From Candidatus Oxydemutatoraceae bacterium (lineage in GTDB: Bacteria > Pseudomonadota > Gammaproteobacteria > Poriferisulfidales > Oxydemutatoraceae), in the NCBI GenBank assembly GCA_965219575.1, contig OZ244779.1:2060769-2124768 (forward strand): DNA of 64,000 bases, read 5' to 3'. The translations under genes and the position numbers were made by a program. Shown piece by piece: positions 1 through 20,196 of the stretch (positions are counted from its first letter, which is position 1; each line of letters begins with the position of its first letter). Under the pieces are notes generated by a model. The model saw only the letters and a list, made by a program, of their open reading frames with translations, did not search any database and was not told where the DNA came from.

Positions 1-1860
1 TGCCATAATGCTTTCAATAACCGGGTTTTCGTTTGCAACCCTATACGGATTGGATCGGATTGTCGTCTCTTGTCCTATATTGTCTACGATCGTTACGTCC
101 AACCTATAAATCGTATCTGCGGCTCGGGCAGCATTAGACAATGGTATTGTATAGGTATCGCTGTTTGCTCCATTTATTATGAGATCATTTCTATACCACT
201 GATAGCTTGTCATGGCGATACCGTTCGCATCCTCTACCGTTGAAGTCTCGATAAGCAACTGCCATTGATCATTGCTATCCGACCCTATGATTATACTGCC
301 GGTCGGTTTCGCATCAACACTTACTGTCAGGGTTGTATCATCGCCGGCTAAACCTTCGCTATCGGTTGCGGTAAATGTGATTGTCGCTGTTCCGGCTTGA
401 CCGGCGGTTAGTGTGAAAGTGATATTCATGTTCGCTGCTATGTCGGGAATCTCCACCGGCATCACCGATACGACAGATTGGTTCGAAGACATTGCTGTCA
501 CATCGACTGTATCGTTCACATCAAAGTTTTGATCCTTCACTAATATCACAATATTCGCAGTACTCCCCGTTTCTATCGTCAGTGTCGACAAGAAAATAAT
601 CTCAAGGGTCGGAGCTTCGTTTTCATCAACGAGGGTAGGAAATTGAGTTGATGTTCCGAAATCCCACACCGACAAACTCCAATTACTATATATTCCGTTA
701 TTAGTCATGGGTGATGTGAGATTCCCGGCAGTTTGTCCTGCAGTATACGAAAGTGGCGAACCTGAACCTATATCGTTAAGCGTAGAACCTGTTGCTCTTA
801 GCCAATAGCTAAAGCTAATAGCATTTGACAAATTATTACCAACCAATCCGCCTACAAAAGAACGGGCACCTGTAACAGAACCCGTTGTATAACTATTCAT
901 AATAGGACTGTTGTTCAAACCGACTAAACCGCCTACATTAGAGTCGGTACCTTCAACAGAACCCGTCGCATAATTATTCATAATGGGGCTGGAATTCCCA
1001 CCGACCAAACCGCCTACATTGGAACGATCCCCGATAATGGAACCCGTCGCATAGCTACTCGTAATGGAGCCGCCAATACTTCCACCGACTAAACCGCCGG
1101 CCCCGGAGCCTACCGTTAGGTACCTGCCTGTAACAAAACCTGTGGCGTAGCTGTCTGTGATAGTCCCTCCGGCATTCCCACCGACTAAACCACCTACAAA
1201 AGAATCGGTTCCTGTGACGGAACATGTCGCATGACTATTCGTGATAGTGCCACCATCATTTCCACCGACCAAACCACCGACATCGGCAGAGGTTCCGGTA
1301 ACCGAACCTGTGGCATAGCTAGCCGTGATGACACCTTCACTCTCGCCGGCTAAACTACCCGCATAAGAAGGAGAAGTAGAAGTTCCTATGACATTTACAT
1401 TTAGCAAACCAATATCAGAAATTTCAGCCCCGCTTCCTACATAGCCGAACAAGCCTATGTGATCAATACTGCTGTTGATCATAAGGTTGGAAATAGTGTA
1501 GCCGTTGCCTTTGAACATTGCGTTGAAAGTATTAGACGAAGTTCCAATCGGTTGCCAGCCTGCTCCCGTAGTCCATCTGTTTCTATTGGCCGGGGCGTTG
1601 CGATAACTTGCATTATTGTTGAAGTCCAAGTGTCTCATCAACTCGTAGCCATTACAACCGTTCGTAGGACAACCCGTAGTAATCTCTACTCCACTTAACT
1701 GCAGACCACTGCCGTCCGGTTGACGGCGTACCGCATCCAAGTCTTCCAAATAATAAATCTCTATCAGACCATCGTCGTCGGTGTCTATGTCGGTGACAGT
1801 CTGCGCAGTAAGATTTGCACTGAATAGTGCAAGTAGAATAATCAACAAGAGGGTTTTCAT
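1..1860 (-). CDS. Secreted GLUG-motif repeat surface protein/adhesin-like, 3' end outside the window
   Basis: Not in the ORF track because it runs off the window. ATG at 1860 reads MKTLLLIILLALFSANLTAQ (signal peptide), then DTDDDGLIEI and GWQPIG, then tandem SYATGSVxG..VGGLVGxN repeats, followed by T/V/D-rich Ig/cadherin-like sequence. Confidence 0.8.
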   Translation of the reverse strand, partial: MKTLLLIILLALFSANLTAQTVTDIDTDDDGLIEIYYLEDLDAVRRQPDGSGLQLSGVEITTGCPTNGCNGYELMRHLDFNNNASYRNAPANRNRWTTGAGWQPIGTSSNTFNAMFKGNGYTISNLMINSSIDHIGLFGYVGSGAEISDIGLLNVNVIGTSTSPSYAGSLAGESEGVITASYATGSVTGTSADVGGLVGGNDGGTITNSHATCSVTGTDSFVGGLVGGNAGGTITDSYATGFVTGRYLTVGSGAGGLVGGSIGGSITSSYATGSIIGDRSNVGGLVGGNSSPIMNNYATGSVEGTDSNVGGLVGLNNSPIMNSYTTGSVTGARSFVGGLVGNNLSNAISFSYWLRATGSTLNDIGSGSPLSYTAGQTAGNLTSPMTNNGIYSNWSLSVWDFGTSTQFPTLVDENEAPTLEIIFLSTLTIETGSTANIVILVKDQNFDVNDTVDVTAMSSNQSVVSVMPVEIPDIAANMNITFTLTAGQAGTATITFTATDSEGLAGDDTTLTVSVDAKPTGSIIIGSDSNDQWQLLIETSTVEDANGIAMTSYQWYRNDLIINGANSDTYTIPLSNAARAADTIYRLDVTIVDNIGQETTIRSNPYRVANENPVIESIMA

Positions 1861-2004
1861 TTTTTAATAAATTATTACAGCTTTGCTAACCGGAATGACC
1901 TTGACTTTCCCCCCAAAATCAGCTTTATTCAAAATCTATATTGTAATAATAAAAATCTTTGTGTCAACTAAATATACGATGCTGTAAGCACAAAGTAGTA
2001 ATGT

Positions 2005-2298
2005 GGGGCTGTTGAAAAAGTACCGCTTTGCACGAATTCAACTGCTTTGCACCACATGTATGATAACCACAAAGTCGTAGGGGCAGACCTGTGTGTCTGC
2101 CCTTAAGTACCGTTCTGCACGACTGTAACCGATTGCGCCATTTGGTTTTGGTTTCCATAAATCGGGTGGATGAATGTATAAATCGTGCCGACCAGCACAT
2201 TACGGGCAGAATAGAGCCACCGATTGAGCCAGTAGGTCAACTGGCTATTCAATTGAAGTCCGCCCCTACATTTTATGGAATACTTTTTCAATAGCCCC
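2005..2298. mobile_element. MITE-like element with GGGGCTGTTGAAAAA terminal inverted repeats and internal GTAG REP palindromes
   Basis: Left end GGGGCTGTTGAAAAAG, right end CTTTTTCAATAGCCCC. Internal GTAGGGGCAGACCTGTGTGTCTGCCC. Flanks are ATGT/ATTT (imperfect 4-bp TSD). Confidence 0.8.
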
Positions 2299-2424
2299 AT
2301 TTTCCGGCGGAAAAAGTGCTTTTCTAGCGGAAAGATTAGGCTCTCAAGAGTCCAATATGTATCCGGCATTATACCGATACTAAATTTGGAGAAAACATCA
2401 AATTGATTAAATGTAGCATGGTTT

Positions 2425-2441
2425 CTTAAGAGTAACAAACT
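2425..2441 (+). other. Putative recombination (inversion) site A, CTTAAGAGTAACAAACT
   Basis: The identical 17-mer lies at the 5' end of all three porins. Similarity to porin 3 stops immediately upstream of it. Confidence 0.7.
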
Positions 2442-2466
2442 TACGCTTTTTCTGGTCGGACTGGCG

Positions 2467-3855
2467 ATGGTAGCAATGCCGTTTACTAATGCTTCCGCCG
2501 ATGCCCATGGCGAGACCTTTAACATCTACGGCTGGCAAAACTGGTCTTATGAGTTCGTTGACGCTGACGGTGTTGATGGCGATGGCGACCCCTTTAAACG
2601 CAACTTTGACCGTTTGAGTAATAATGCTGCGAATCTCGGATTCATGGCGCATATGGACACCGGTATTGAAGGTTTGCAAGTTGGTTTTCGTTGCGAACAG
2701 TTTACTTTCTTCGGACGCAGAAATGAATTCACCAACTGGTGTAACCGTAACTCCAAAATCAGCCTTCGCCATGAAACAATGGGTGAAATTATGTTCGCTC
2801 AGTGGCTACTGCCGTATAACGAAATCGTTGCCCAGTGGGTAGATCCTTTCTACGATGCCGGTGCCGATTCACACTCTAGTATTATGGGTAATATCGGTGG
2901 TGCTGCAGACCGTGCCGGTGGCTGGCTGAGTTCTCTGTTCTACAACGGTGGCTTTGACATCGATGAAGGTGATTTTACCAAGGAATATGGTGCGTTAGCG
3001 TTTAGCCGTCGTCAAGAAGGTATAGTCCAATATGTGTGGCCTAATACTTCGGCGATGGCGAGTCAAACCCGAGACGGTTTCCAATTCCGCTTTGCGATTA
3101 CATCAGGAGATGAGATTGAAAGAGTGGGTGCTGATACCCAGCGACTCACTGGTAGAGATGTTGATCCCCGCATCCTGTCCACCGGTGTTGCCTATCAACA
3201 CAATATGGGCAACAGCCAAATTTGGGTTGCTGCCGCTTATGAGCAACACGAGGATGTTAGTGCGGTCAACCTTGGTAGCAATTCCGATGAAGTAAATGAT
3301 TTGTACTGCGATGACTCAGACGACGAGGGCTATCGAATTGCCGGTCGCTATAAGTTCGATTGGGGCAACGGTCAGTCCACTTGGATTGCGGCGATGTATG
3401 AAACATTGGAATACGATGCAAGTTGTCAATTGGTAACACAGGTCGCTCGACCTGCTATGGGCAACAATCCTGCCACACCTACCATGTTTGGAGACACCGA
3501 TAACACTAATGCTCCCATTTGGTCCGGTGTTGAACGCGATGCATTTATGATTTCCGGCAAGCATGATTTCGGCAACAGTATAGATTTCCGCTTCTCGTAT
3601 ATGGATGCAGACGAGTGGGACTGTGATGCCGATGTTTGTAGAGCGGAAGACGAGCGAGACACCGATGCAGACGCAATCAATGTCGGCTTGTTCTACACGA
3701 TGCCGGCAGGCACCGAACTGCGTGCCACCTATTCCGAGGTCAGCAACGAAAACAACGCCGGTTACGACTTCGGCATTTATCCCGGTGCCAATGGTAATGC
3801 CATAGGTGGAGATATAGAAATGTTCGCCGTCGGTATAGTCCACTACTTCGACTAA
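2467..3855 (+). CDS. Outer-membrane porin paralogue 1, probably a silent cassette lacking the native start
   Basis: Porin-like features: FNIYG motif and C-terminal FAVGIVHYFD. The frame is open upstream as LKSNKLTLFLVGLA, but there is no ATG-AAA or RBS, and an in-frame TGA lies at 2404. Confidence 0.85.
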   Translation: MVAMPFTNASADAHGETFNIYGWQNWSYEFVDADGVDGDGDPFKRNFDRLSNNAANLGFMAHMDTGIEGLQVGFRCEQFTFFGRRNEFTNWCNRNSKISLRHETMGEIMFAQWLLPYNEIVAQWVDPFYDAGADSHSSIMGNIGGAADRAGGWLSSLFYNGGFDIDEGDFTKEYGALAFSRRQEGIVQYVWPNTSAMASQTRDGFQFRFAITSGDEIERVGADTQRLTGRDVDPRILSTGVAYQHNMGNSQIWVAAAYEQHEDVSAVNLGSNSDEVNDLYCDDSDDEGYRIAGRYKFDWGNGQSTWIAAMYETLEYDASCQLVTQVARPAMGNNPATPTMFGDTDNTNAPIWSGVERDAFMISGKHDFGNSIDFRFSYMDADEWDCDADVCRAEDERDTDADAINVGLFYTMPAGTELRATYSEVSNENNAGYDFGIYPGANGNAIGGDIEMFAVGIVHYFD

Positions 3856-3985
3856 ACCATTAAATTAAGAAAAACATATAGACACGGATGTCGCGGAAGC
3901 TTCCCTCCGATTGGAGGGAAGACTTCTGACCTTCCCCCAGTTCCTGGAGGCAAGGTCAAGTCCAATCGCTATGCGGATTAACGTC

Positions 3986-4819
3986 ATGATCATTTCACAT
4001 CAACTCAAAATTATATTTATAAAATGTAAAAAGGTTTCAGGGACATCATTTGAAATAGCACTTTCAAAGTACTGCGATCCCGACGATATAATTACCAGAT
4101 TGAAAGGGGAAGAAGAGGAAAGACGAATTTCTCGGGGGTTTACTAAAGCATCAAACAGTAAAACTTTGCTGGCTTTACAGGGAAAACTAATCATGGCGAA
4201 ATTAAGGATGCGTCCAGGCATAAATAATTGGTGCAAATATAGACCACATATGTCTCATTTAGGAGCATATGAAATTAAAGAAACATCCCCCCCCGATGTT
4301 TGGAATAATTACCTGAAAATAGCGATTATACGCAGCCCCTATCAAAAAGCTATTTCTTATTATTTCTGGAAGAAAAGATCTCAAAAACTAAAATTCGTAA
4401 ACAAAGATTTTGAACAATTTATATCTTTGACATGTCGTAGGCGTAAAAACAATCCGTTAATGGATTACGACTTGATACATATTGCCGGAAAGTCAGTTCT
4501 TGATTTTGTAATTAGATACGAAAATCTAGTCAAGGACATTTCAAAACTAGAAACCAAGATAGCCGTCCCCGGACTATTAGAAACATATCGGAGTATTGGT
4601 GCTAAAAGAAATATCCGTCCGGCAACGAGAACATCTCCTTACGAGGTATATCTGCGTTACCCCAAAGCAAAGCTAATGATAGATCAACTTTATCAGGAAA
4701 ATTACGATAAGTACGAATTATTAAGGAAATACTTTCCGATATATAAATCTGAGATGGAAAGTATTTTAAAAATGAACCCTATCAAAGACACAAACAGTGG
4801 AAAGCTTCCCTCCGAGTGA
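3986..4819 (+). CDS. Sulfotransferase family 2-like protein
   Basis: MIISH..IFIK..KVSGTS PAPS-binding start, IIRSPY and DFVIRYENL motifs. Paralogue of 54025..54753. The ORF track start at 3911 is probably too early. Confidence 0.7.
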   Translation: MIISHQLKIIFIKCKKVSGTSFEIALSKYCDPDDIITRLKGEEEERRISRGFTKASNSKTLLALQGKLIMAKLRMRPGINNWCKYRPHMSHLGAYEIKETSPPDVWNNYLKIAIIRSPYQKAISYYFWKKRSQKLKFVNKDFEQFISLTCRRRKNNPLMDYDLIHIAGKSVLDFVIRYENLVKDISKLETKIAVPGLLETYRSIGAKRNIRPATRTSPYEVYLRYPKAKLMIDQLYQENYDKYELLRKYFPIYKSEMESILKMNPIKDTNSGKLPSE

Positions 4820-4841
4820 TGTTGCCCCAAAAAACTGAGCT

Positions 4842-5660
4842 ATGAAAATACTTCGCTGCAAGCAATCAAAAGCGTTAAGGAATTGGATAAAGAACCGCGA
4901 GTTCAAGAAATACGAATCAACCGAATATTTGCTTAGTTATAAGAAAGGGCGGTCGACGAATAAACTTTATAAATTCCTGCTTGCCGATATTGACTGTCAG
5001 GTTATTATGAAAGTTTCCCAAATAAATAGACCTTTTGAATTGATATTAAAGCATTATTTACGGGATGCCAACCACATGGCTTTTCGTTGTTGCAAGAAAG
5101 CCTATTCCCATAATCTGGCGGCACCCGAACCTTTTGCTTATTGGAGAAAGCGCGATAGTTTGACACAAGTTAAGAGTTATTTTTTATATTAGTATATAGA
5201 GGCAGACTTTCAGGTTGGGGAGATATACGAGAAATAAGTAAAACCAAGCGTTATCGATTCAAAGCAAAAAAAGGCATTAATAAGACAAAAAATCATCAGT
5301 GCGCTTAAATCCCTTCATCGGCAAGGTATACGGCACGGAGATGTAGCAACGCATAATATATTGATGTCTGTCGAAAACACAGACAATTTATCAAGCGCAA
5401 GAGTTTATTTTATAGATTATGAAAAAGCCTCTCTTACTAAAATCAAATATCCGGCTTTTATTAGAAGATTTTTTGATCTAAGAGATTTACGCATAATGAC
5501 AATAGGCAATGCCTCACAGTACGATATGCTTAGGCTTTATTTAGGAAGCGATTATCACTCTTTATGGAATATGGTATTAACTTTTTGGCGGTGGGGGGGA
5601 TTTAATCCTTTCCGATGGCGTAATCCCGACACTCGTAAAATTAGAAAACACATGAGATAA
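4842..5660 (+). pseudogene. LPS/Kdo kinase-like (InaA/WaaP-type) gene broken by one in-frame TAG
   Basis: ORFs 4842..5192 and 5361..5660 are in the same frame. KSYFLY*YIE here matches KSYFLYRYID in the intact paralogue 15114..15938. HGD..HNI and YFIDY motifs lie after the stop. Confidence 0.8.
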
Positions 5661-5686
5661 AAGAAACCGCCGCCCGAAGGCGGCGG
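5658..5686 (-). terminator. Rho-independent terminator of porin 2
   Basis: CCGCCGCC-TTCG-GGCGGCGG hairpin followed by TTTCTTTT on the minus strand. Confidence 0.8.
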
Positions 5687-5751
5687 CTCGTGCTATCCCT
5701 AGCACTTGGTCATTCAATAAAATTTCATCCATGAAATCTATATATGGTATT

Positions 5752-7407
5752 TTAGTCGAAGTAGTGGACTATACCGACGGCGAACATTTCTACGTCCTCG
5801 GCTTCGTTATCATCGGGCACATTCCATAGGTTTGTGCTACCGATACCGAAGTCGTACCCTGAGTTCCTTTCGTTATCTACTTTTGAATAGGTTAAACGTA
5901 GTTCGGTACCTGCCGGCATTGTATAAAACACGCCGACGTTATAAGCCTGAGCGTCGGTATCTCTATCGAGAAAGTAATTGTCGTTTCTCATGCTTTCTGC
6001 GGTTGCGGTGTCATCTCCGACATTCGTGTGACTACGATTAGTGTTGTTAACACGCTGATTACCTGCGAAGCCACCTGCAAATCCTGCATACTCGCTATAA
6101 AAGCCGGGTTCGCCACAGACACCACCGGGACATTCCAAATCGTCGGCATCCATATACGAGAAGCGGATATCAAATCCGTTGCCGAAGCTATGCTTGCCGG
6201 AAATCATGAAAGAATCGCGTTCTACATCGCTCCAGAGCGTATTTATAGGTTGGAGAGATCTGTTCACACCGGTGACGGGGTCAACACGGTTGGTATTACC
6301 ATTATCTAGGTATGTCATACAACCATCGGCATCGTACTCTAATGTCTCAAACATGCCAGCAATCCATGTGGATTGACCGTTACCCCAGTCATGCTTATAA
6401 CGAGCTGCAACGCGATAGGCTTCGTCGTCCGAGTCTTGGCAGAAGACACCGGCACCGTATTGTTCATCGGGAAAACTAGTCGGGCGAGCAAGTTCACGAG
6501 CGGTAACATCTTCGTGTTTTTGATAAGCTACTGCAACCCAGATTTGATCGTTGCCCATATTATGTTGATACGATGCACCGGTTGACCAAATGCGAGGATC
6601 CAGTTCATAACCACCATTCTCTGGTGAGTCTGTATAGCCATCTAATGCCCTGTTCCCGAAATAAGCATTATAATAATTATCGCCGGTGTCGTCTCTGTCA
6701 GCCGCGTCAAAAGTATCTCGAACATCCAAATGTGCTTCATCATAAGCACCGGATGTCATCGCAAAACGGAACTGAAAACCGTCTCGGGTTTGACTTGCCA
6801 TAGCCGAAGTATTCGGCCAGACATACTGGATGATTTCTTCTTGGCGGCGATTAAAGCTCAGTGCGTATAGCCCTTCATAACTGAAGTCTGCCCCCGTACC
6901 TAGCGGGAAAGTGCCACCATTGTAGAAGACACCTCCGAAACCAACATTACCCATAATGCTGGTATGCGAATCGGCACCAGCATCGTAGAACGGATCTACC
7001 CACTGGGCGACGATCTCGTTATATGGCAATAGCCATTGACCGAGCATAATCTCACCCATCGTCTCATGACGAAGACTGATTTTAGAGTTACGATTACACC
7101 ACCCCGACGAAGTAAATCGGTTATGGAATGTAAATTGCTCACAACGAAAACCGACTTGCAGGCCCTGGATACCGGTATCCACATGCGCCATGAAGCCGAT
7201 ATTTGCCGCATTACCTTGAATGCGATCAAACTCTCTTTCATCGGCATGACCACTGAAATAACGATTGTTCTCAAAGGTTCGATCTGCTTCTACATATTCA
7301 TACGACCAGTTTTGCCAGCCGTATATGTTAATAGTCTCGCCATGACCAGCGGCGGAAGCATTAGTAAACGGCGTTGCCATCATCGCTAGCCCGACCAGAA
7401 AAAGCAT
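5752..7407 (-). CDS. Outer-membrane porin paralogue 2 with longer loops, probably a silent cassette
   Basis: Same conserved blocks and C-terminal FAVGIVHYFD. Upstream frame reads GTA-AAA-AAA-CTT-AAG instead of ATG-AAA-CTT-AAG, with an in-frame TAA at 7449 and no RBS. Confidence 0.85.
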   Translation of the reverse strand: MLFLVGLAMMATPFTNASAAGHGETINIYGWQNWSYEYVEADRTFENNRYFSGHADEREFDRIQGNAANIGFMAHVDTGIQGLQVGFRCEQFTFHNRFTSSGWCNRNSKISLRHETMGEIMLGQWLLPYNEIVAQWVDPFYDAGADSHTSIMGNVGFGGVFYNGGTFPLGTGADFSYEGLYALSFNRRQEEIIQYVWPNTSAMASQTRDGFQFRFAMTSGAYDEAHLDVRDTFDAADRDDTGDNYYNAYFGNRALDGYTDSPENGGYELDPRIWSTGASYQHNMGNDQIWVAVAYQKHEDVTARELARPTSFPDEQYGAGVFCQDSDDEAYRVAARYKHDWGNGQSTWIAGMFETLEYDADGCMTYLDNGNTNRVDPVTGVNRSLQPINTLWSDVERDSFMISGKHSFGNGFDIRFSYMDADDLECPGGVCGEPGFYSEYAGFAGGFAGNQRVNNTNRSHTNVGDDTATAESMRNDNYFLDRDTDAQAYNVGVFYTMPAGTELRLTYSKVDNERNSGYDFGIGSTNLWNVPDDNEAEDVEMFAVGIVHYFD

Positions 7408-7408
7408 A

Positions 7409-7425
7409 AGTTTGTTACTCTTAAG
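7409..7425 (-). other. Putative recombination site B, inverted relative to A and C
   Basis: AGTTTGTTACTCTTAAG is the reverse complement of the 17-mer. Confidence 0.7.
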
Positions 7426-7598
7426 TTTTTTTACGGTATAGCGAAGTTAAAATGAAATCGCCTTGCATTGCCGATAAGTTTATTGTCCTTTGTTTTATAG
7501 AGCAACAGCATAGGTATAATAAGCGTGCATTTGCTTATGGCAATTTATACAAATGAGGTTTTCCGACCTCATACTTATTAATAAAAGAGGATCATTAT

Positions 7599-8573
7599 AT
7601 GAAAGAAAAAACTATAGAGATTATGGAAAGATCCGGGCATACCGTCTCGGAGATGATAGACCGCTATATTAAAGAAGTCTCAATCATTCACCCCAACACC
7701 GTAAAAAATCAAGGTAGTCATCTGAAGTGGTGGCAACAAGAAATAGGACATTATCATTTGAGCAGTGTGAGACCTGCGGTGTTGATTGAATACCGAAAAA
7801 AATTATTATGCGAGGTGTGCTGTCGAGGGAAACCTCGTTCTACGGCGACGGTTAATCGCTATTTTTCTACATTGGGTCGTGTTTTTGCCGTTGCGATAAA
7901 AGAATGGGAATGGATGGAAAGTTCACCGTTGCAAAATATCTCCAAGCTGGAAGAGCCTGTCGGGCGCACTCGTTTTTTATCCGAGCAAGAAATCAGCCGC
8001 TTGTTAGATGCGTGTGCCTCTCTGAACCATCAAGATTTATATACTGCGGTTGTATTGGCGTTGAGCACTTGCGCTCGGCGTATGGAGATTATGTCTCTGC
8101 ATTGGCAACATGTAGACCTTGATCTTGGCGTTATCTATTTGCATAAGACTAAAAACAAAACCAGCCGTGCTGTTCCTCTGCAAGGTTATGCACTTGAGTT
8201 AATTCGCGCAAGGTATCAGTCGACGGTCGCTCTGTCGGCATTGGTATTTCCCAGCCGCTTAAAACCCAATCAGCCGGTTAGTCTCAGAACATCTTGGGAG
8301 AAAGCGTTATTGTTATCGGGCATCAAAGATTTTCGCTGGCACGATCTAAGGCATACCGGTGCATCTTATCTTGCAATGCAGGGTGCTTCATTGACGGAAC
8401 TATCTGAAATACTGGGACATAAAACATTGCAGATGGTTAAGCGTTATGCGCATCTCTCGTTACCACACACAATTCAAATTGTCGCCAGAATGAATCAAAC
8501 CCTTTTTGAAAAGTCGGTTAAAAACAAAAAATGGCTCAAAAACCGGCAAAATCCTTACAAATCCAGCAAATAA
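7599..8573 (+). CDS. Tyrosine site-specific recombinase (stand-alone, candidate invertase, Rci-like)
   Basis: Catalytic set: CARRMEI (R), KTKN (K), WHDLRHT (HxxR), LGHK, RYAH (Y). AAGAGG RBS. No phage genes nearby. Confidence 0.92.
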   Translation: MKEKTIEIMERSGHTVSEMIDRYIKEVSIIHPNTVKNQGSHLKWWQQEIGHYHLSSVRPAVLIEYRKKLLCEVCCRGKPRSTATVNRYFSTLGRVFAVAIKEWEWMESSPLQNISKLEEPVGRTRFLSEQEISRLLDACASLNHQDLYTAVVLALSTCARRMEIMSLHWQHVDLDLGVIYLHKTKNKTSRAVPLQGYALELIRARYQSTVALSALVFPSRLKPNQPVSLRTSWEKALLLSGIKDFRWHDLRHTGASYLAMQGASLTELSEILGHKTLQMVKRYAHLSLPHTIQIVARMNQTLFEKSVKNKKWLKNRQNPYKSSK

Positions 8574-8622
8574 AATGTGTTGCTGAAAAACAACACTATT
8601 TGCCGGAATAGTTACTTTTTTA

Positions 8623-8651
8623 TTGAATTATCGGTTAGACAAAACTATAAT
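8623..8651 (+). promoter_or_regulatory. Sigma70-type promoter for the expressed porin
   Basis: TTGAAT-17 bp-TATAAT. RBS AAAGGAG at 8733-8739 precedes ATG 8748. Confidence 0.7.
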
Positions 8652-8747
8652 CTATCCCAATTAAGTAAACCTAGTGTTGTTTATATGGTACTAACTAAGT
8701 CATTAGCTATGCTGTTCACAACACATTAACATAAAGGAGAAAATTTT

Positions 8748-10136
8748 ATGAAACTTAAGAGTAACAAACTGTTAATTTCTCTCGTCGGTCTTGTGATGGC
8801 AGTAGTACCTTTTACTAATGCTTCCGCTGCGGGTCATGGCGAGACTTTTAACATATATGGTTGGCAAAACTGGTCGTATGAGTTCGTTGACAACGATACT
8901 CGCGATTATGACCGCTTGAGCAATAATGCTGCGAATATCGGATTCATGGCGCATATGGATACTGGTATTGAAGGCTTGCAAGTCGGTTTTCGTTGCGAAC
9001 AATTTACCTATTGGGGGCGCTTTAACGAATTCACCAACTGGTGTAACCGTAACTCCAAACTCAGCCTTCGCCATGAAACGATGGGTGAGATTATGGTCGG
9101 TCAATGGTTGCTTCCGTATAACGAGATCGTTGCCCAGTGGGTAGATCCCTTCTACGATGCCGGTGCCGATTCGCACACCAGCATTATGGGTAATATCGGT
9201 GGTAGCACACCGCGTTCCGGTGGTTGGCTGAGTTCATTGTTCTACAACGGTAGCTTTGACAATGCAGCTGATTTTACTTCAGCTTTTGGCACCTTAGCGT
9301 TTAACCGTCGTCAAGAAGGTATAGTCCAATATGTATGGCCTAATACTACGGCGATGGCAAGTCAAACTCGAGACGGTTTCCAGTTCCGCTTTGCAATCAC
9401 CTCCGGAGACGGGATTGAAGCTGCCGGTGTTGATACTCGGCGGACCCTCACTGGTAGAGAGATTGATCCCCGTATTATGTCCACCGGTGTTGCTTATCAA
9501 CACAATATGGGTAACAACCAAATTTGGGTTGCTGCCGCTTACGAGCAACACGAAGATGTCAGTGCGGCCAATCTTGGTGCTGGTACTGGCAGTAATGATA
9601 TCTATTGTGATGACTCGGACGACGAAGGCTATCGCCTAGCCGGTCGCTATAAATACGATTGGGGTAACGGTCAATCCACTTGGATCGCAGCGATGTATGA
9701 AGAACTGGAGTACGACGCAAGTTGCGACATGGTAACAATGCGTGATGCCGATGAAAATCCTACTGCAATTGGTAATTTTAATAATACTAATGCTCCCATT
9801 TGGTCCGGTGTTGAACGCGACGCATTTATGATTTCCGGCAAGCATGCCTTCGGCAACGGCATAGACTTCCGCTTCTCGTACATGGATGCAGACGAGTGGG
9901 ATTGTGATTCAGATGTTTGTACGGCAGCAGCCGAGCGAGACACCGATGCAGACGCAATGAATTTCGGTGTGTTCTACACGTTGCCGGCAGGTACCGAGCT
10001 GCGTGCCACCTATTCCGAGGTCAGCAACGAAGACAATGCTGGTTATGACTTCGGCATAAATGGTACCGTTCCTGCCACTACAGGCGGCCAAGACATAGAA
10101 ATGTTCGCCGTCGGTATAGTCCACTACTTCGACTAA
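8748..10136 (+). CDS. Outer-membrane porin paralogue 3, the currently expressed copy
   Basis: Full signal peptide MKLKSNKLLISLVGLVMAVVPFTNASA, strong RBS, C-terminal FAVGIVHYFD. Confidence 0.9.
   Translation: MKLKSNKLLISLVGLVMAVVPFTNASAAGHGETFNIYGWQNWSYEFVDNDTRDYDRLSNNAANIGFMAHMDTGIEGLQVGFRCEQFTYWGRFNEFTNWCNRNSKLSLRHETMGEIMVGQWLLPYNEIVAQWVDPFYDAGADSHTSIMGNIGGSTPRSGGWLSSLFYNGSFDNAADFTSAFGTLAFNRRQEGIVQYVWPNTTAMASQTRDGFQFRFAITSGDGIEAAGVDTRRTLTGREIDPRIMSTGVAYQHNMGNNQIWVAAAYEQHEDVSAANLGAGTGSNDIYCDDSDDEGYRLAGRYKYDWGNGQSTWIAAMYEELEYDASCDMVTMRDADENPTAIGNFNNTNAPIWSGVERDAFMISGKHAFGNGIDFRFSYMDADEWDCDSDVCTAAAERDTDADAMNFGVFYTLPAGTELRATYSEVSNEDNAGYDFGINGTVPATTGGQDIEMFAVGIVHYFD
8754..8770 (+). other. Putative recombination site C (expression site)
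   Basis: The 17-mer directly follows ATGAAA. Confidence 0.7.
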
Positions 10137-10201
10137 AATACCGTAAAAAGATTTCACGGATGAAATTTGATTGGATGACCCAGTGCTAGGGATAGCACGA
10201 G

Positions 10202-10229
10202 ACCGCCGCTTCCGGGCGGCGGTTTTTTT
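10202..10229 (+). terminator. Rho-independent terminator of porin 3
   Basis: ACCGCCGC-TTCCGG-GCGGCGGT followed by a T-run. Confidence 0.85.
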
Positions 10230-10534
10230 ATCTAGTGCATTAATAGCGGGGCTTTTGAAAAATTATTTCATAAAGTTGTAGGGACGGACTTCATTAAACT
10301 ACCGATTGACCTACCGGCTCAATCGTCGGCTTTATTCTGCCCTTACGGCTTGGTGGTTATTATAAATTCACTGCGCAAGCGGTTGCAGTTGTGCAAAAAC
10401 AGTAGGTACTTGGGGTTGTTGAAAAAGTATTTCATACAATGTAGGGACGGACTTGCATGATGCCTTATTAAAAATCAAGTCGTTTTATTCATTTTTTATC
10501 TCCTTTTGCAAGTATTGATTTAGGACACAGATGC

Positions 10535-11509
10535 TCAACAATAATTCGTGTCAAACGGTTGCTTGTGCGTGGTGACCCCGTAAATAATACGCGTGAGCTT
10601 ATGCGCGCAAGCAACAATAATCTGCTTTTTAGTTAACTCCGGACGGCGGCGACTTAATTGGTCGGCAAATGCACGGATGGTTGGGTTATGAACCCGTGCC
10701 GAGAGTGCTGCCATAAATAGCAGGGTGCGCAGGTCGGCATTGCCCTGTTTAGAGATGGGCGTGGGCGATGCGCAGTTGCCGGATTGCTTGTGCTTGGGCG
10801 TAATGCCGATATAGGCGGCGAGTTGCTTTGGATGGCGAAACGTATTATCATCCAGTACTGCACACAGGGCAGCCGCAGTTTGAGTTCCGATTCCAGGAAT
10901 GGAACACAGCAACTGGTGAAGCTGTGTGAGGTGCTCGTCTTGAGCGATAATTTTGTCCATTGAGACATTAATCTTATCGATCTGCTTGTCATGGTTCTTC
11001 AGGCTAGTGGCTGCCACCTTTTTTTGCTTCGCATCGCGCAGAGTTTTAGCGCAATTGCTTAACATCGTATGACACTTGACTAATTCCCTACGCCATTTCA
11101 GTGCGTCGCGCAAGGCTTGCACAGCCGATGAGGGCTTTTGCCAATCGTTTTCAGGCGGGATAGCAAATACGAAGCGTGCGATGATACGCGCATCCACTCG
11201 ATCGGTTTTACTGCGTATGCCGAGCGAGTCGCGGAATCTAGAGATCAGCACCGGTGCTGCAACGGTGATTGGATGCCCGGTATCATAGCCGGCCATGCAC
11301 AGGTCTAGTTCAAGACCGCCGGTCGCCTCAACACAGATGCGACACTGCTGTGCGCGGTGTTTGGTAGCCCAAGCTAACAACTGCTTAATGCCTTGGGCAT
11401 CACTACTAAATTGTTGTTCGGCAAAACTATTATCGGTGAATAGTATAGCCGCCTCTAAAGTGTCTTTAGAGACATCAACGCCAATCGTGACGGGTTGTTT
11501 GTTTTCCAT
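10535..11509 (-). CDS. IS110-family DEDD transposase/bridge recombinase
   Basis: IGVDVSK, VEATG, KTDRVDA, SIPGIG and the QSG catalytic Ser region. Confidence 0.93.
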   Translation of the reverse strand: MENKQPVTIGVDVSKDTLEAAILFTDNSFAEQQFSSDAQGIKQLLAWATKHRAQQCRICVEATGGLELDLCMAGYDTGHPITVAAPVLISRFRDSLGIRSKTDRVDARIIARFVFAIPPENDWQKPSSAVQALRDALKWRRELVKCHTMLSNCAKTLRDAKQKKVAATSLKNHDKQIDKINVSMDKIIAQDEHLTQLHQLLCSIPGIGTQTAAALCAVLDDNTFRHPKQLAAYIGITPKHKQSGNCASPTPISKQGNADLRTLLFMAALSARVHNPTIRAFADQLSRRRPELTKKQIIVACAHKLTRIIYGVTTHKQPFDTNYC

Positions 11510-11569
11510 AATAAATTACTCCATAAGGGTTGGTTAATGAATGAAATACTAGGTATCAAGCACAGTTTA

Positions 11570-11770
11570 GGAAAGTATGACTACGCCGCCCAAACAGATG
11601 AATACGAGATCTAAAGTCCCAAGCTGCCTTTCGAGCTCTATAGTCATAACGCCGGAGGAGTGCTTCTCATGCAAACAGGCTTTTAATGCCTCGTCCGTCC
11701 TACAGCGTGTCTCCTCCGACTTCCTAGGCACTGCATCTACCTAAGCGTTTATCTTATATCAAATAAGCCA
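11570..11770 (-). ncRNA. Putative IS110 bridge RNA
   Basis: A 5' stem-loop plus two large stem-loops (11651-11720, 11576-11648) whose internal loops match the target and donor junction sequences. Ends are approximate. Confidence 0.7.
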
Positions 11771-12877
11771 GGGTTTAATATATCTGTCCGCCCGTAGCGC
11801 GTTGGGCGGCACGATTTATACATTCATTCACCCGATTTATGGAAACCAAAACCATCCGGCGAAAGCGGTTGCGTTCATACAGAACGGCACTTTTTCAATA
11901 GCCCCGTGTATCTGCACAACATCTTACCGTTTATCTAATATCTGCTACCGTTCATCGAAATGTTTCCCCACACCCTAAATATTGGCTCACTCTATGAGTT
12001 TTAACCAAAACTTATAGGAGGTTTCATGAACAAAGAACAGAAAAAATATTTACCACTGACCAAAGACCGCGTCTTCAAACGATATTTCTCAACTAATAAA
12101 CAGGTACTGCTCTCGCTGATCAAGAGCTTTCTGCCGATCTCCGATAGTGCCTCGGATATGGTGATACTGAACCCCGACAAAGACAACACAGAGTCCGAGT
12201 CTGCAATGCAACCACAGAGTCAATCGGACGATCAGTTGCATCTGGAAGATAGTGTCATCCCACCGAACACGCCGGACGGCAAGCAAGTCGTACTAGACCT
12301 CAATGTCAAATTGAATAGTGGCGAGAATGTTAGCATAGAAATGCAGGTCTATCGTGAGAAACACTTTCTGGGTAGAATGTTGCTCTATTGGGCACAGTTG
12401 CATATGCATGTCGTAAATCGTGGACAAAAGTATAGCAAGATTAGTCCGACCTACTTGCTGGCATTCACCGATTTCACGGTATTTGGCGACACGGACGAAC
12501 ATATAGATCAACTAGAAATCAAATCGATTAAGCATCTGAATAAGAAACTCAAGATGGATTTAACGATAATGATAGTGGAACTAAACAAATTTAATAAGAG
12601 CCACTTAGAGCTAGTTGATATGGCCGATAGGTGGTGCTATATTATGAAACACGCAAAGGACTTGACACCCGAGCAGGTAGCGCATTTATCACAAGACGGA
12701 GAGATAAAGATGGCATTAGAGCATTTAGAGAAGGTATCGGAAGAGGAGATAGAACTGTGGGATTCTATAGCCCACGACAGATACAAGCTGGAATACAACT
12801 TGGAAAGGGAAGGACTGATAGAGGAAGGCATTGAACTGACGTTACCCCATTTTTATTACCATATACAAAGTTAGTTT

Positions 12878-13702
12878 TCATGCTATAGCCTCCGCAAATA
12901 CACTTGGGGGTTGATAACCCAATGCGCTGTGCGGACGCACTTCATTATAATCTATTCGCCAGGCTTCTATAATCTCTCTCGCCTCTTTTATTGAACGAAA
13001 CCAGAACTGGTTCAGACAACCGTCTCGGAACTTGCCGTTGAAACTTTCTACAAAGGCATTCTGGGTCGGTTTGCCGGGTTGGATAAAGTCCAATTCCACC
13101 TGCTGATCTCGGCTCCAGTGAAACATCGCCTTGCATCTAAACTCGGTGCCATTGTCGCAGACGATGCGTGCCGGCTTCACACCGAGCCATTCTATCAATT
13201 CGGATAGATAGTTTGCTACGCGTTGACCGGTGATCGAAACATCAACAATCTGTCCGACACATTCACGGCTGAAGTTATCTACTATGTTCAATACCCGAAA
13301 GCATCTGCCGTCGCTAAACTGGTCATGCACAAAGTCCATTGACCAGCACTCATTCACCGTTGCCGGTGTTTTCGGCACGCCACGCGGATGACACAGCTTC
13401 TTGCGCTTCTTGGTTCTCAATTCGAGCCTGAGCTTCTTATAAAGCCTATAGGTACGCTTCACATTGACGACCCGGCCTTCGCTCTTCAAAAGCGCATGCA
13501 ACATCTTATAGCCATAATGTGGATATTGCTTTGCCTTCTCCAATAACGCAACTTCCAGTTGACGATCTTTATCGGCTTGGTTGCCCTGATAGCGATATGC
13601 AGTGCGACTAATACTGGCAAGGGCACACGCAGTGCGTTCACTATGCCGACCCGCGCTCACTAGATCTTTGACAATCTGCTTGCGTTGCGCCGGCTTTACC
13701 AC
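12878..13702 (-). CDS. IS3 transposase OrfB (DDE integrase core)
   Basis: WSMDF, CDNGTEF and PGKPTQNAFVESFNG motifs. An AAAAAAG frameshift site lies at the orfA/orfB overlap. Confidence 0.92.
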   Translation of the reverse strand: MVKPAQRKQIVKDLVSAGRHSERTACALASISRTAYRYQGNQADKDRQLEVALLEKAKQYPHYGYKMLHALLKSEGRVVNVKRTYRLYKKLRLELRTKKRKKLCHPRGVPKTPATVNECWSMDFVHDQFSDGRCFRVLNIVDNFSRECVGQIVDVSITGQRVANYLSELIEWLGVKPARIVCDNGTEFRCKAMFHWSRDQQVELDFIQPGKPTQNAFVESFNGKFRDGCLNQFWFRSIKEAREIIEAWRIDYNEVRPHSALGYQPPSVFAEAIA

Positions 13703-13962
13703 TTTTTTGATAATACCTCCTTAAGTGTTTCACACTGCATCACCGATTCAGCCAATAGCTTCTTGAGCTTGCTATTATCGGCTTCAAGCTCTCGCAGGCG
13801 TTTAGCTTCTGCCACTTCCATGCCATTATACTTGCTGCGCCAGCGATAAAATGTCTGTTCGGCGATGCCTAGATCACGACAGATATCGATTACTTTCATG
13901 CCGGCTTGATTTGACTTTAATGCCTTAATGATTTGTTCTTCACTAAAACGTTTTCTCTTCAT
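13696..13962 (-). CDS. IS3 transposase OrfA (HTH)
   Basis: MKRKRFSEEQII...TFYRWRSKY...LRELEADNSKLKKL. Confidence 0.92.
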   Translation of the reverse strand: MKRKRFSEEQIIKALKSNQAGMKVIDICRDLGIAEQTFYRWRSKYNGMEVAEAKRLRELEADNSKLKKLLAESVMQCETLKEVLSKKW

Positions 13963-14294
13963 GTTAAGTTCTCCTGTAATGTTTTTAACTTCTCTAGTTT
14001 ATCGGAAAAACTAACTTTAAGCATTAGTACTAAATTTTGGGAGAACGTCAGAACAAGGCATTGAACAGGGTGAGGTTAAAAAAGCCCGAAATATCGCCTT
14101 GAATATGTTGCAGAAGGGTCTGGAGGTTTCGTTGGTTTCCGAAGTGACGGGTTTATCCGCTGAGGAGATTAAACGGCTCGGATAACACTGCGACTTTGTG
14201 GTTATCATAACTATGTGGCGCAAAGCGATTGAATTCGTGCGCAACGGTACTTTTTCAACAGCCCCACTTGACTAGTTTAGGGACAAAATCCCAC

Positions 14295-14969
14295 TCAAAT
14301 ATCCCTTACCATCTTCATTAGCATATCATACTTTTGGGAGGCTGAAAGGTGTCTGTGATTGAATCGCCACTCGCATTCTTTTAGATGAAGGTGGAAATGT
14401 TCTCTAGACACTCCGCAGAACTTTGTTAATCTCCTTTTTGCCCATCCCCAGAAGTTTTCAATGCCATTGATATGTCTAGTACCACTACCCAGTGTCTTTG
14501 AATGATTGATGCGGTAGTATTTGTATCCATTCAACACCAACCCGTCATAAGCTCTCCATTTGTCAGTGTATATAGTACTCTGATGTCCCACCAAACGCTT
14601 GATAATAGGTCGTATCTCGCTCTTTGAAGCATTTCGTATCACCTGCATATAGACCTTCCCATCTCTTTTCAATATGCCGAATACCGGTACTTTGTTCGGT
14701 GCACCTCTACCTCTTTTGTCTCCTTTTTTGCGACCACCGAAGTAGGACTCATCCAACTCTACTTCGCCGGAGAATACGCTCGTCTTCTCGCAGTGTTGTG
14801 CAATTCTTTCTCGGATTATATTGACATATCTATTCACTGTATTTCTATTGACCCCGGCTGCTTGTGCGATTTGGGTTGCACTCAAATCAAGGGCAAAATA
14901 CCTCACAATTTGCCTTATTTTCCTGTTTGAAATATGTGCCCTTCTAAAATGCCTGTTAGGTGTTGTCAT
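14295..14969 (-). CDS. IS1595-family transposase
   Basis: GEVELDESYFGG, VFGIL, IYTDKWRAY, NHS and HINGIENFW motifs. Confidence 0.92.
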   Translation of the reverse strand: MTTPNRHFRRAHISNRKIRQIVRYFALDLSATQIAQAAGVNRNTVNRYVNIIRERIAQHCEKTSVFSGEVELDESYFGGRKKGDKRGRGAPNKVPVFGILKRDGKVYMQVIRNASKSEIRPIIKRLVGHQSTIYTDKWRAYDGLVLNGYKYYRINHSKTLGSGTRHINGIENFWGWAKRRLTKFCGVSREHFHLHLKECEWRFNHRHLSASQKYDMLMKMVRDI

Positions 14970-15113
14970 TGCTAGTTATTTTATCAAATCGTACCCCCTA
15001 AACTAGTCAAGTACCAAACAGTATTTTTCAACAGCCCTATAGCGCACGCATCGCAAAATGCAGAATCGAGGTTTCGGAAAAGTATTCCATACCAACCCTT
15101 AAGCACATATTCG

Positions 15114-15938: not shown

Positions 15939-16011
15939 ATCGTACGCACCAAGATAATGTGTAACTCGGCATTAGCTCATTGTATAATAAAACAAAGAAA
16001 AAAGGCCCTCT

Positions 16012-16950: not shown

Positions 16951-16960
16951 AATAGGTGCA

Positions 16961-17965: not shown

Positions 17966-18000
17966 AAGATAGGTTCTATAGAGTCCTATGTCATACCGAA

Positions 18001-19050: not shown

Positions 19051-19092
19051 TATGATTATTCGAACTAAGAATTTACTTCATACTATACATTA

Positions 19093-20154: not shown

Positions 20155-20196
20155 TATGATTACTTGAACCGGAAATTTATTTCTTACGATAAACGA

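What the first reader, a model, noticed from the sequence alone, without database searches (positions are those of the whole stretch)
2425..10136. Candidate porin shufflon: one promoter/start, three porin cassettes and a dedicated tyrosine invertase
Seen: three porin paralogues (+, -, +) with conserved strands and very different loops. Each begins with an identical 17-mer CTTAAGAGTAACAAACT: A 2425-2441 (+), B 7409-7425 (-), C 8754-8770 (+). Only porin 3 has a TTGAAT-17-TATAAT promoter, an AAAGGAG RBS and ATG-AAA before the site. Porins 1 and 2 have the site in frame (LKSNKL) but no native start or RBS, and an upstream in-frame stop. A stand-alone tyrosine recombinase sits with the promoter between B and C. 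Inference: a B x C inversion flips the ~1.3-kb recombinase+promoter segment and fuses ATG-AAA onto porin 2. An A x B inversion flips ~5 kb and swaps porin 1 into that slot. Any one of three porins could then be expressed exclusively, giving antigenic or phage-receptor switching. Established analogues: the R64 Rci/sfx shufflon (sites conserved on one side only, as here) and Dichelobacter nodosus omp1 inversions. I do not know of this specific porin/recombinase system being described.
Basis: partly seen in the sequence, partly recalled or inferred. Interest (0 to 1): 0.92.

Follow-up and report, generated by a model that had tools for sequence, protein, structure and literature searches.

The report
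Invertible porin-gene switch in sponge symbiont
A sulfur-oxidising sponge symbiont keeps three versions of its only general porin gene but just one promoter and start codon, and a recombinase gene sits where it could flip DNA to choose which version is made, a known kind of surface-variation switch in a new form.

Summary
Three porin genes (2425-3855 +, 5752-7425 -, 8748-10136 +) become homologous exactly at an identical 17-mer. Only the third has a promoter-like site, an RBS and ATG-AAA. An intact tyrosine recombinase (7599-8573) lies with that promoter between two inverted sites.

The genome is a 'Ca. Porisulfidus' MAG (SUP05-clade sponge symbiont, judged from its relatives' record titles). 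The porin(-)|recombinase|porin(+) layout recurs in 5 further genomes of two genera.

Key evidence: compared with sister genome G003, the promoter side (96% identical) and the recombinase-5' side have swapped porin partners reciprocally. The break lies inside the 17-mer, too short for RecA. Relative to an orthologous outer flank, the recombinase/promoter segment is inverted.

Supporting contrasts:
- G004 has one cassette and a truncated recombinase.
- G014 lacks the recombinase, and its two porins each have their own start.

Not shown: switching today. Assembled contigs of three DNA runs show only the reference orientation (raw reads were not available). Nothing tests the A x B inversion or exclusive expression.

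Best reading (0.75): a tyrosine-recombinase multiple-inversion switch for the cell's only general porin. It works like D. nodosus omp1, Mycoplasma vsa or the R64 shufflon, but I could place it in none of those families. New variant of a known kind.

The parts
2425..2441 (+). Site A: the 17-mer at the 5' edge of the porin 1 cassette
   Evidence: Exact match. Homology with the other cassettes starts here. The in-frame upstream sequence has a stop and no start codon.
2425..3855 (+). Porin 1 cassette (short type), silent in this orientation. It lacks a promoter, RBS and the first two codons.
   Evidence: Pfam Porin_4 1.2e-10. 78% amino-acid identity to porin 3 by tblastn. The first in-frame ATG (2467) leaves only MVAMPFTNASA of the signal peptide.
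3911..5660 (+). Passenger genes inside the A-B segment: a sulfotransferase-like gene (3911-4819), orf116 (4842-5192) and orf99 (5361-5660)
   Evidence: PF03567 7e-6 and phrog_3347. orf116 and orf99 have no family hit. The same gene pair lies convergent to porin 3' ends in G003, G001, G004 and at window 15123-15875.
5664..5689 (-). Terminator-like hairpin after porin 2
5752..7425 (-). Porin 2 cassette (long type, with 31- and 35-residue loop insertions), silent in this orientation
   Evidence: 55% amino-acid identity to porin 3. Alignment. A TAA stop lies three codons before the site, and the first in-frame ATG is at 7407.
7409..7425 (-). Site B: the 17-mer, inverted relative to A and C
7426..8753 (.). 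Proposed invertible segment of about 1.3 kb carrying the recombinase gene and the only porin promoter, RBS and ATG-AAA
   Evidence: Bounded by inverted sites B and C. It is orthologous in G003, G001 and G004, but joined there to different cassettes.
7599..8573 (+). Tyrosine recombinase (324 aa)
   Evidence: PF00589 5e-32. The catalytic R-K-H-R-H-Y residues are invariant in 6 orthologues. Nearest solved relative is HP1 integrase, 4.6e-13. No NCBIfam model is passed.
8623..8651 (+). Promoter-like TTGAAT-17-TATAAT
   Evidence: 10 of 12. The 100 nt before site C are 83-96% identical in G003, G001 and G004.
8733..8753 (+). RBS AAAGGAG, spacer, and ATG AAA (the only start codon for any cassette)
   Evidence: The same sequence precedes the site in G003 and G001, and G004 has a near-identical version.
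8754..8770 (+). Site C: the 17-mer
8748..10136 (+). Porin 3, the cassette at the expression site in this assembly
   Evidence: Complete ORF starting MKLKSNKL. Porin fold. Three contigs of an RNA library lie at 8800-9563.
10199..10226 (+). Terminator-like hairpin after porin 3
3815..3856 (+). 42-nt 3' end, identical in all three cassettes (also 5751-5792 on the - strand and 10096-10137 on the + strand)
   Evidence: The copies are near-identical within each genome but differ by 3-8 nt between genomes, which indicates concerted evolution.

Best explanation
This is a multiple-inversion expression switch for the cell's only general porin.

One promoter, RBS and ATG-AAA sit on a 1.3-kb segment that also encodes a tyrosine recombinase. 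Each porin cassette begins with a 17-bp site that encodes signal-peptide residues 3-8.

Proposed mechanism:
- Recombination between inverted sites B and C flips the promoter/recombinase segment and fuses ATG-AAA to porin 2 instead of porin 3.
- Recombination between A and B flips the 5-kb segment and brings porin 1 into the slot next to the promoter.
- The three porins differ mainly in surface loops, so the switch changes what the cell shows to phages and to the host.

What is shown: the anatomy, an intact enzyme, conservation of the layout, and one evolutionary B x C-type exchange with its break inside the site.

What is inferred: that this recombinase does it, that it still happens, that A takes part, and that only one porin is made at a time.
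For: 1. Anatomy. There are three exact sites at the homology edge, arranged + - + with the recombinase and the start signals between B and C. The silent cassettes are otherwise complete, with terminators after porins 2 and 3, but lack any in-frame start.

2. Reciprocal exchange at the site.
- G000_C against G003_C is 96% identical in the 100 nt to the left and 77% in the 100 nt to the right.
- G003_C then follows G000_B (85-100% per 20-nt window, apart from two windows at 55 and 70%, over about 420 nt), and G003_B follows G000_C.
- The sequences differ immediately after the 17-mer, so the break lies within 17 bp.
- In both genomes the short porin faces flank R (window 15124-20184, 85% identity over 5 kb), but the recombinase/promoter segment has the opposite orientation.

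3. A second, independent case. G001 and G004 share the promoter side at 97%, yet carry different signal-peptide patches (+17 to +60) directly after the site.

4. Conserved linkage. A recombinase orthologue (57-94% identity) occurs in 6 of 19 genomes of the family, and always beside this porin. In contrast, 0 of 157 loci holding more distant homologues (52% or less) have a porin nearby.

5. Natural controls.
- G004 has 1 cassette and a recombinase lacking residues 1-79.
- G014 has no orthologue, and its 2 porins lie in direct orientation, each with its own RBS and ATG.
- G009 has 1 porin with its own start.

6. Spread. Of the 19 groups with 2 or more copies, 12 have exactly one copy with the full start, 4 have none and 3 have two.

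7. Concerted change of the site. Both G001 sites carry the same C>T change.

8. RNA-library contigs lie on porin 3, at 8800-9563.
Against: - No strand-changing joint at any site was seen in Logan contigs of 3 DNA runs. In X1 (depth about 20) and X2 (depth about 500), single contigs bridge B and C (5763-9056) and A (2165-2754) in the reference orientation. Contigs drop rare variants, so this excludes only a large alternative subpopulation.
- Nothing bears on A x B. The flank upstream of A has no orthologue in the relatives examined.
- Sites A and C are direct repeats, so the same enzyme could delete 6.3 kb including its own gene. The model needs either a bias towards inversion or selection against that product.
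- The signal-peptide/body mosaics (G001) and the rearrangements at the 3' flanks (G001 against G000) show that homologous recombination also reshapes the locus.
- I found only weak dyad symmetry, in inconsistent register, around the sites.
- The enzyme passes no curated invertase family.
- A promoter-like site points at porin 2, and porin 2's ATG at 7407 keeps a hydrophobic signal core. Some expression of porin 2 cannot be excluded.
Confidence: 0.75

Rival explanations
1. The cassettes exchange by RecA-dependent homologous recombination or gene conversion between the inverted porin repeats, as I recall for Campylobacter fetus sapA. The recombinase would be a bystander or serve another purpose.
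For: Long inverted repeats of 80-89% identity exist between cassettes. The 3' ends evolve in concert: the 42-mer is identical in all 3 copies in G000, including a TGG>TAC change that the relatives lack. G001 shows signal/body mosaics, and its whole porin-recombinase-porin block is inverted relative to flank R.
Against: The G000/G003 exchange has its break inside 17 bp, with unlike sequence on both sides. From general knowledge of RecA requirements, that is too short for RecA. This rival also does not explain why the recombinase gene stays between or beside the cassettes across two genera, down to 57% identity, or why it is truncated where only one cassette is left.
Confidence: 0.12
2. A fossil. 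The locus once switched (or merely duplicated), but it is now fixed with porin 3 on, and porins 1 and 2 are decaying spare copies.
For: Only the reference orientation is seen in contigs of X1, X2 and X7. G004 shows that such loci do decay. IS110 and PD-(D/E)XK transposase genes have entered next to the locus.
Against: All three cassettes are open to the stop codon. The three sites are identical and the recombinase keeps all catalytic residues. The lineage-specific TGG>TAC change shared by all 3 copies shows recent exchange between cassettes.
Confidence: 0.08
3. Three independently expressed porin paralogues. Porins 1 and 2 would start at internal ATGs, and the shared 17-mer would be only conserved coding sequence.
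For: Porin 2's ATG at 7407 is preceded by AAGAG about 10 nt upstream (read) and keeps a hydrophobic core. A promoter-like pair points at it. Three-way identical runs of 17-18 nt also occur inside the genes.
Against: Porin 1's first ATG leaves 11 residues of signal peptide. The silent copies in G003 and G001 have no comparable ATG. In the recombinase-free genome G014, both porins carry full starts and homologous upstream regions, which shows what independent paralogues look like in this family.
Confidence: 0.05

Closest known systems
Dichelobacter nodosus omp1 multiple-inversion locus (Moses et al. 1995; not held. Seen only through passages in PMC4196234, PMC3241671 and PMC11852207)
   Same: [quoted passage not shown] Site-specific inversions are proposed to decide which form is made.
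   Different: Its crossover sites are listed among the 26-bp sites of Din-family serine recombinases (PMC3241671, section 11 passage). Here the only recombinase in the locus is a tyrosine recombinase, and the conserved part of the site is 17 bp. Homology between Omp1 and these porins was not tested.
R64 shufflon (Rci / sfx)
   Same: A tyrosine recombinase and several inverted sites that are conserved on one side only (7-bp core plus right arm), with a variable left arm (PMC11852207, introduction passages). The 17-mer here likewise has unlike sequence to its left in all three copies.
   Different: The shufflon swaps 3' ends of pilV, whereas this locus swaps whole genes onto one 5' start. Rci has an extra C-terminal domain. 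The recombinase here is 324 aa with only a short Lys-rich tail, which is missing in the genus-g4 orthologues. Homology to Rci was not tested.
Mycoplasma surface-lipoprotein switches (M. pulmonis vsa/HvsR; M. agalactiae vpma/Xer1). Details are recalled; vsa is named in a PMC11852207 passage.
   Same: As I recall them: one expression site holding the promoter and the start of the gene, silent copies lacking that 5' part, a tyrosine recombinase encoded at the locus, and sites at the 5' end of each copy. This is the closest match in logic.
   Different: Those are lipoproteins of wall-less bacteria. Here the cargo is a 16-strand general porin of a Gram-negative chemosynthetic symbiont, and the recombinase rides on the invertible promoter segment. 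Relatedness of the enzymes was not tested.
Campylobacter fetus sapA promoter inversion (named in a PMC11852207 passage; mechanism recalled)
   Same: A promoter-bearing segment lies between two oppositely oriented cassette genes and flips to express one or the other.
   Different: As I recall it, that inversion is RecA-dependent, runs through long conserved 5' regions, and has no dedicated recombinase. Here homology to the left ends at a 17-bp site, and a recombinase gene sits in the segment.
fim-type promoter invertons (tyrosine invertases FimB/FimE; abstract of PMC6083910 seen)
   Same: A tyrosine recombinase flips a promoter-bearing element.
   Different: Those give ON/OFF control of one operon. 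Here the flip carries the RBS and the first two codons and chooses between alternative genes. The FimB/E-type NCBIfam models score far below cut-off (33.8 bits against 222).

Membership tests
Tyrosine recombinase superfamily (PF00589) | Catalytic domain with the R...K...HxxR...H/W...Y residues | tested here: met
   PF00589 5.3e-32. R160, K185, H248, R251, H274 and Y283 are invariant in 6 orthologues, and the catalytic domain aligns with HP1 integrase.
Curated Xer, integron-integrase or FimB/E invertase families (NCBIfam) | Score above the curated cut-off of the model | tested here: not met
   The best hit is XerA_Arch at 80.6 bits against a cut-off of 220. XerC and XerD score 65 and 57 bits against about 330. 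The tyrosine-type DNA invertase model scores 33.8 bits against 222.
Rci-type shufflon invertase system | Sites conserved in the core and one arm only, with the other arm variable | tested here: met
   The left flanks of A, B and C are 47-57% alike, which is background level. The site itself is identical and the right side 76-88% alike.
Rci-type shufflon invertase system | Sequence homology to Rci and its extra C-terminal domain | not tested
   No Rci sequence was used. The protein is 324 aa, and its Lys-rich tail of about 20 residues is absent from the g4 orthologues.
Rci-type shufflon invertase system | Inversions observed between multiple sites | tested here: inconclusive
   Contigs of 3 DNA runs show no alternative junction. 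A cross-species comparison shows one reciprocal exchange at the site.
D. nodosus omp1-type (Din-family) inversion system | Serine invertase and 26-bp Din-type crossover sites | tested here: not met
   Of the 10 ORFs of the region scanned against Pfam, the one between sites B and C is a tyrosine recombinase; the only other recombination genes lie outside the finding (IS110 and PD-(D/E)XK transposases); no serine recombinase was found. The definition of the site class is taken from a PMC3241671 passage.
General (OmpF/PorB/Omp32-type) porin | 16-strand beta-barrel with an inward-folded constriction loop, and a Porin_4 signature | tested here: met
   Porin 1 hits PF13609 at 1.2e-10. Many homologues carry PF13609. 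The model matches 2fgq Omp32 at 1.2e-18, with TM-score (normalised to the target) 0.78. A trimeric state was not tested.
Single-expression-site cassette switch (working definition) | Only one copy per locus has a promoter, RBS and start codon | tested here: met
   This holds in G000, G003, G001 and G007. G017's silent copy has an ATG but no RBS. Of the 19 multi-copy contig groups, 12 have exactly one full start.

The most novel reading that the evidence does not exclude
A previously undescribed clade of tyrosine invertases is dedicated to switching the single general porin of SUP05-clade symbionts among 2-4 full-length cassettes. It acts at an asymmetric 17-bp site that overlaps codons 3-8 of the signal peptide.

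The system would be conserved across at least two genera and many MAGs. It would work together with homologous exchange between cassettes to generate mosaic porins. Porin identity in a chemosynthetic symbiosis would then be a phase-variable trait, for phage escape or host recognition.
Probability: 0.6. Interest if true: 0.72.

Novelty: new variant of a known kind. Interest (0 to 1): 0.64.

Why it matters
General porins are the main phage receptors and the main surface antigens of Gram-negative cells. They are normally varied by mutation or regulation, not by a built-in DNA switch.

If this switch is real, an uncultured sponge symbiont carries a programmed way of changing its whole porin, and the same locus in related symbionts suggests steady pressure from phages or from the host. 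It would also add a compact tyrosine invertase with a short asymmetric site to the small set usable for DNA shuffling tools.

The system is directly testable with existing long-read data and a simple E. coli reporter.

Tried and rejected
Reads. Only Logan contigs were served, not raw reads.
- No joint or loose end at any 17-mer appeared among the rows shown (56 loose-end rows and 564 contig pieces were not shown).
- The RNA-library run X13 gave no contig on 2000-8799 or 9564-10600.
- X7 (a close strain, 1 difference in 1661 nt of the recombinase segment) has no cover at 95% identity over most of the porin 2 body (about 6018-7165).
- X7's contigs end exactly 30 nt into sites A and B. That is what a shared k-1 word produces, so it says nothing about linkage.
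- X7's joint 5654|10233 (opposite strands, depth 62.7, 57 nt on the shorter side) could mean a flipped porin-recombinase-porin block, or merely a porin-3-like 3' flank on a divergent cassette. I left this ambiguous.
Their word shares are not used.

Other steps that led nowhere:
- Metagenome scan with the 23-mer (ATG AAA plus the site): 0 hits.
- Scan of metagenome contigs with the recombinase alignment: the best relatives are 51% identical or less, and none has a porin nearby.
- Dyad-symmetry search around the sites: partial dyads (8-10 of 10-13 positions) in differing registers. I judged this not distinguishable from chance in AT-rich sequence.
- Rfam and tRNA scans of 1-16000 and 1-20000: nothing, so there is no sign of a tRNA-targeted integrative element.
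- Sequence search of the PDB with porin 3: 0 hits. The fold search was needed instead.

Literature. No paper holds 'SUP05' + porin + inversion + recombinase or sulfur-oxidizing + symbiont + porin + 'phase variation'. Of the 2 papers for porin + shufflon + 'tyrosine recombinase' and the 15 of 38 listed, none describes a porin switch, judged from listings and abstracts only. Moses et al. 1995 is not held. Supplements are closed, and the site table and supplement of PMC3241671 might show the D. nodosus sites.

I considered a frameshift-prone A7 tract that would let a small upstream ORF (MQGDF...) read into porin 2. It is not conserved in G003 or G001, so I kept it only as a side note.

Full report
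**What is there**

The 17-mer given in the finding occurs exactly three times in the window, at 2425-2441 (+), 7409-7425 (-) and 8754-8770 (+). No further copy appears at up to 3 mismatches, and there is no other copy in the 2.37-Mb single-contig genome.

Each copy opens a porin reading frame: 2425-3855 (+), 5752-7425 (-) and 8754-10136 (+). An alignment of the three 5' regions shows unrelated sequence upstream. Homology starts at the first base of the 17-mer.

Only the third copy is preceded by expression signals: TTGAAT-17-TATAAT (8623-8651), AAAGGAG and ATG AAA. In frame before sites A and B there is a stop and no start codon.

Between B and C lies a 324-residue tyrosine recombinase. It hits PF00589 at 5e-32, and all catalytic residues are present.

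Terminator-like hairpins follow porins 2 and 3. The A-B segment also carries a sulfotransferase-like gene and two small ORFs of no known family.

**A caution on the statistics**

Because the three genes are paralogues, the shuffle test is not the right null. Three-way identical runs of 17, 17, 18 and 42 nt also occur inside the genes. The 17-mer stands out by its position at the edge of homology, not by its length.

**The proteins**

- Porin 1 passes Pfam Porin_4.
- A model of porin 3 built on 51 homologues (pLDDT 82, pTM 0.82) matches Omp32, PorB, OmpF and other 16-strand general porins (best E 1.2e-18).
- Across the three cassettes, 72% of strand positions are invariant against 51% of other positions (Fisher p 8e-6). 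The large insertions of porin 2 (31 and 35 residues) and of porins 1 and 2 (14 residues) fall outside strands.
- No further paralogue of this porin exists elsewhere in the genome. The locus therefore holds the cell's only porin of this type.

**Organism and spread**

The closest genomes are MAGs titled 'Ca. Porisulfidus'. That name appears in papers on SUP05 bacteria and in a sponge genome note (listings and abstracts only).

In the 19 genomes of the family held here, an orthologous recombinase (57-94% identity) occurs in 6, and always next to this porin:
- G000: three cassettes.
- G003, G001 and G007: porin(-)|recombinase(+)|porin(+).
- G017: two convergent cassettes with the recombinase beside them and the promoter/RBS at the far end. 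This has the same geometry as the A-B segment here.
- G004: one cassette and a recombinase lacking residues 1-79.

Genomes without the orthologue behave differently. G014 has two porins in direct orientation, each with its own RBS, ATG and homologous upstream region. G009 has one ordinary porin gene. G002 and G018 have two porins, but their assemblies break inside the locus.

More distant recombinase homologues (52% identity or less; 157 loci from genomes and metagenomes) never have this porin nearby. In the 13 such loci checked for repeats, no inverted repeat spans the recombinase gene.

Of the 19 groups with two or more copies, 12 have exactly one copy with the full MKLKSNKL or MSKKL start, 4 have none among those listed, and 3 have two. 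One of those three is G014 (tallied by eye).

**Evidence that recombination happens at the site**

The 100 nt left of site C are 96% identical between G000 and G003, but the 100 nt to the right are only 77% identical. Instead, G003's promoter-linked cassette follows G000's porin 2 (85-100% per 20-nt window, apart from two windows at 55 and 70%). G003's recombinase-side cassette follows G000's porin 3.

The sequences differ from the first base after the 17-mer. The exchange is therefore reciprocal, with its break inside 17 bp.

Against the outer flank R (window 15124-20184; 85% identity over 5 kb), both genomes have the short porin facing R and the long porin on the far side. The recombinase/promoter segment, however, points the opposite way. 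This is exactly the predicted B x C inversion.

A second pair gives similar evidence. G001 and G004 share the promoter side at 97%, yet carry different signal-peptide patches (+17 to +60) directly after the site.

Both G001 sites share the same C>T change. Across genera the core stays recognisable: AGAGTAA-N-AAACT in the silent-side copies, with the expressed g4 copies agreeing only from GAGTAA onward because their ATG lies within the site.

**What was not seen**

Only assembled contigs, not raw reads, were available for laying.
- In X1 (depth about 20) and X2 (depth about 500), one contig bridges sites B and C and another bridges A, all in the reference orientation. No strand-changing joint lies at a site. 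This rules out a large alternative subpopulation in those samples and nothing more.
- X7, a close strain, has a divergent porin 2 allele. Its joint 5654|10233 is ambiguous (see Tried and rejected).
- Three contigs of an RNA library lie within porin 3, at 8800-9563.

**Other recombination at the locus**

- The last 42 nt of all three cassettes are identical in G000. They include a TGG>TAC change that no relative has. Within each other genome the copies are also nearly identical, while differing by 3-8 nt between genomes.
- G001 carries swapped signal-peptide/body combinations, and its whole porin-recombinase-porin block is turned relative to R.
- Homologous exchange between cassettes is therefore also at work. 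It cannot explain a break inside 17 bp or the conserved recombinase.

**Mechanism and rivals**

My best reading (0.75) is a tyrosine-recombinase multiple-inversion switch.
- B x C moves the promoter, RBS and ATG-AAA from porin 3 to porin 2.
- A x B swaps porin 1 into the neighbouring slot.
- The outcome is one of three porins with different surface loops.

The rivals are:
- RecA-type exchange alone (0.12);
- a now-fixed fossil (0.08);
- three independently expressed paralogues (0.05).

A weakness of the model is that A and C are direct repeats, so a deletion of 6.3 kb that includes the recombinase is possible. The one-sided conservation of the site resembles Rci's sfx sites, where such asymmetry is thought to restrict the enzyme to inversions (PMC11852207, passages). 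Whether that applies here is untested.

**Comparison with known systems**

The logic matches several known systems:
- D. nodosus omp1, four linked major-OMP genes with proposed inversions (PMC4196234 passage);
- the R64 shufflon;
- the Mycoplasma vsa/vpma switches (recalled);
- C. fetus sapA (recalled).

It is not a member of the omp1 class, whose sites are Din-family serine-recombinase sites (PMC3241671 passage). It passes no curated Xer, integron or FimB/E model. Homology to Rci, HvsR or Xer1 was not tested.

Four literature searches found no description of a porin switch of this kind or of this locus.

**Verdict**

This is a new variant of a known kind, with interest 0.64.

Noticed in passing
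window 3815-3856 (+), 5751-5792 (-), 10096-10137 (+): The last 42 nt of all three porin cassettes (13 codons, the stop and one further base) are identical. They include a TGG>TAC (W>Y) change that no relative has. In each related genome the copies also match each other more closely than they match other genomes. This is concerted evolution of the 3' end, possibly marking a second exchange zone.
   Followed up: partly
window 2000-2300, and inverted partial copies at 10411-10454 and 11787-11892: A repeat element of about 300 nt has 73 matches in the genome. Contig depth over it is far higher than over single-copy sequence (67,343 against about 500 in X2). Partial copies bracket the porin locus in inverted orientation. 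It looks like a MITE-type element.
   Followed up: partly
window 10535-11509 (-) and 12026-12874 (+): An IS110-family transposase gene and a PD-(D/E)XK transposase gene lie between porin 3 and the conserved right flank. G004 has that flank directly after its porin, so these are insertions.
   Followed up: partly
window 4842-5660 (+) and 15123-15875 (-); L024 6710-8415; L025 7165-7917; L026 13130-13882: A pair of small ORFs (116 and 99 aa; no Pfam, NCBIfam or PHROG hit) always lies convergent to the 3' end of a porin cassette, in several paralogous copies. Function unknown.
   Followed up: partly
window 7426-7470 (- strand): On the recombinase-5' side, a small ORF (MQGDFILTSLYRKKT*) runs through an A7 tract and stops inside site B, one base out of frame with porin 2. 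In a related MAG protein (P0002) the same peptide is fused in frame to the porin. It is not conserved in G003 or G001.
   Followed up: partly
window 5654 / 10233 (run X7): A close strain has a contig that joins the end of orf99 to the reverse complement of porin 3's 3' flank. It also has no 95%-identical cover over most of the porin 2 body (about 6018-7165). This means either a flipped porin-recombinase-porin block or a divergent third cassette with a porin-3-like flank.
   Followed up: partly
window 1-1860 (-): A large secreted-looking protein has GLUG motifs, a weak Big_9 hit and 81-nt repeat units. A 44%-identical relative lies on the other side of the locus in G003.
   Followed up: no
L106 9638-10552 (G004:C2): G004 has a second recombinase of this clade (61% identity, 304 aa, catalytic residues intact). 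No porin and no flanking inverted repeat lies within 10 kb. Its target is unknown.
   Followed up: partly
L105 591-5329 (G017): In genus g4 the start codon lies inside the conserved core of the site (ATG AGT AAG AA...). In G017 the recombinase sits outside the invertible pair of convergent cassettes, a second geometry of the same system.
   Followed up: partly
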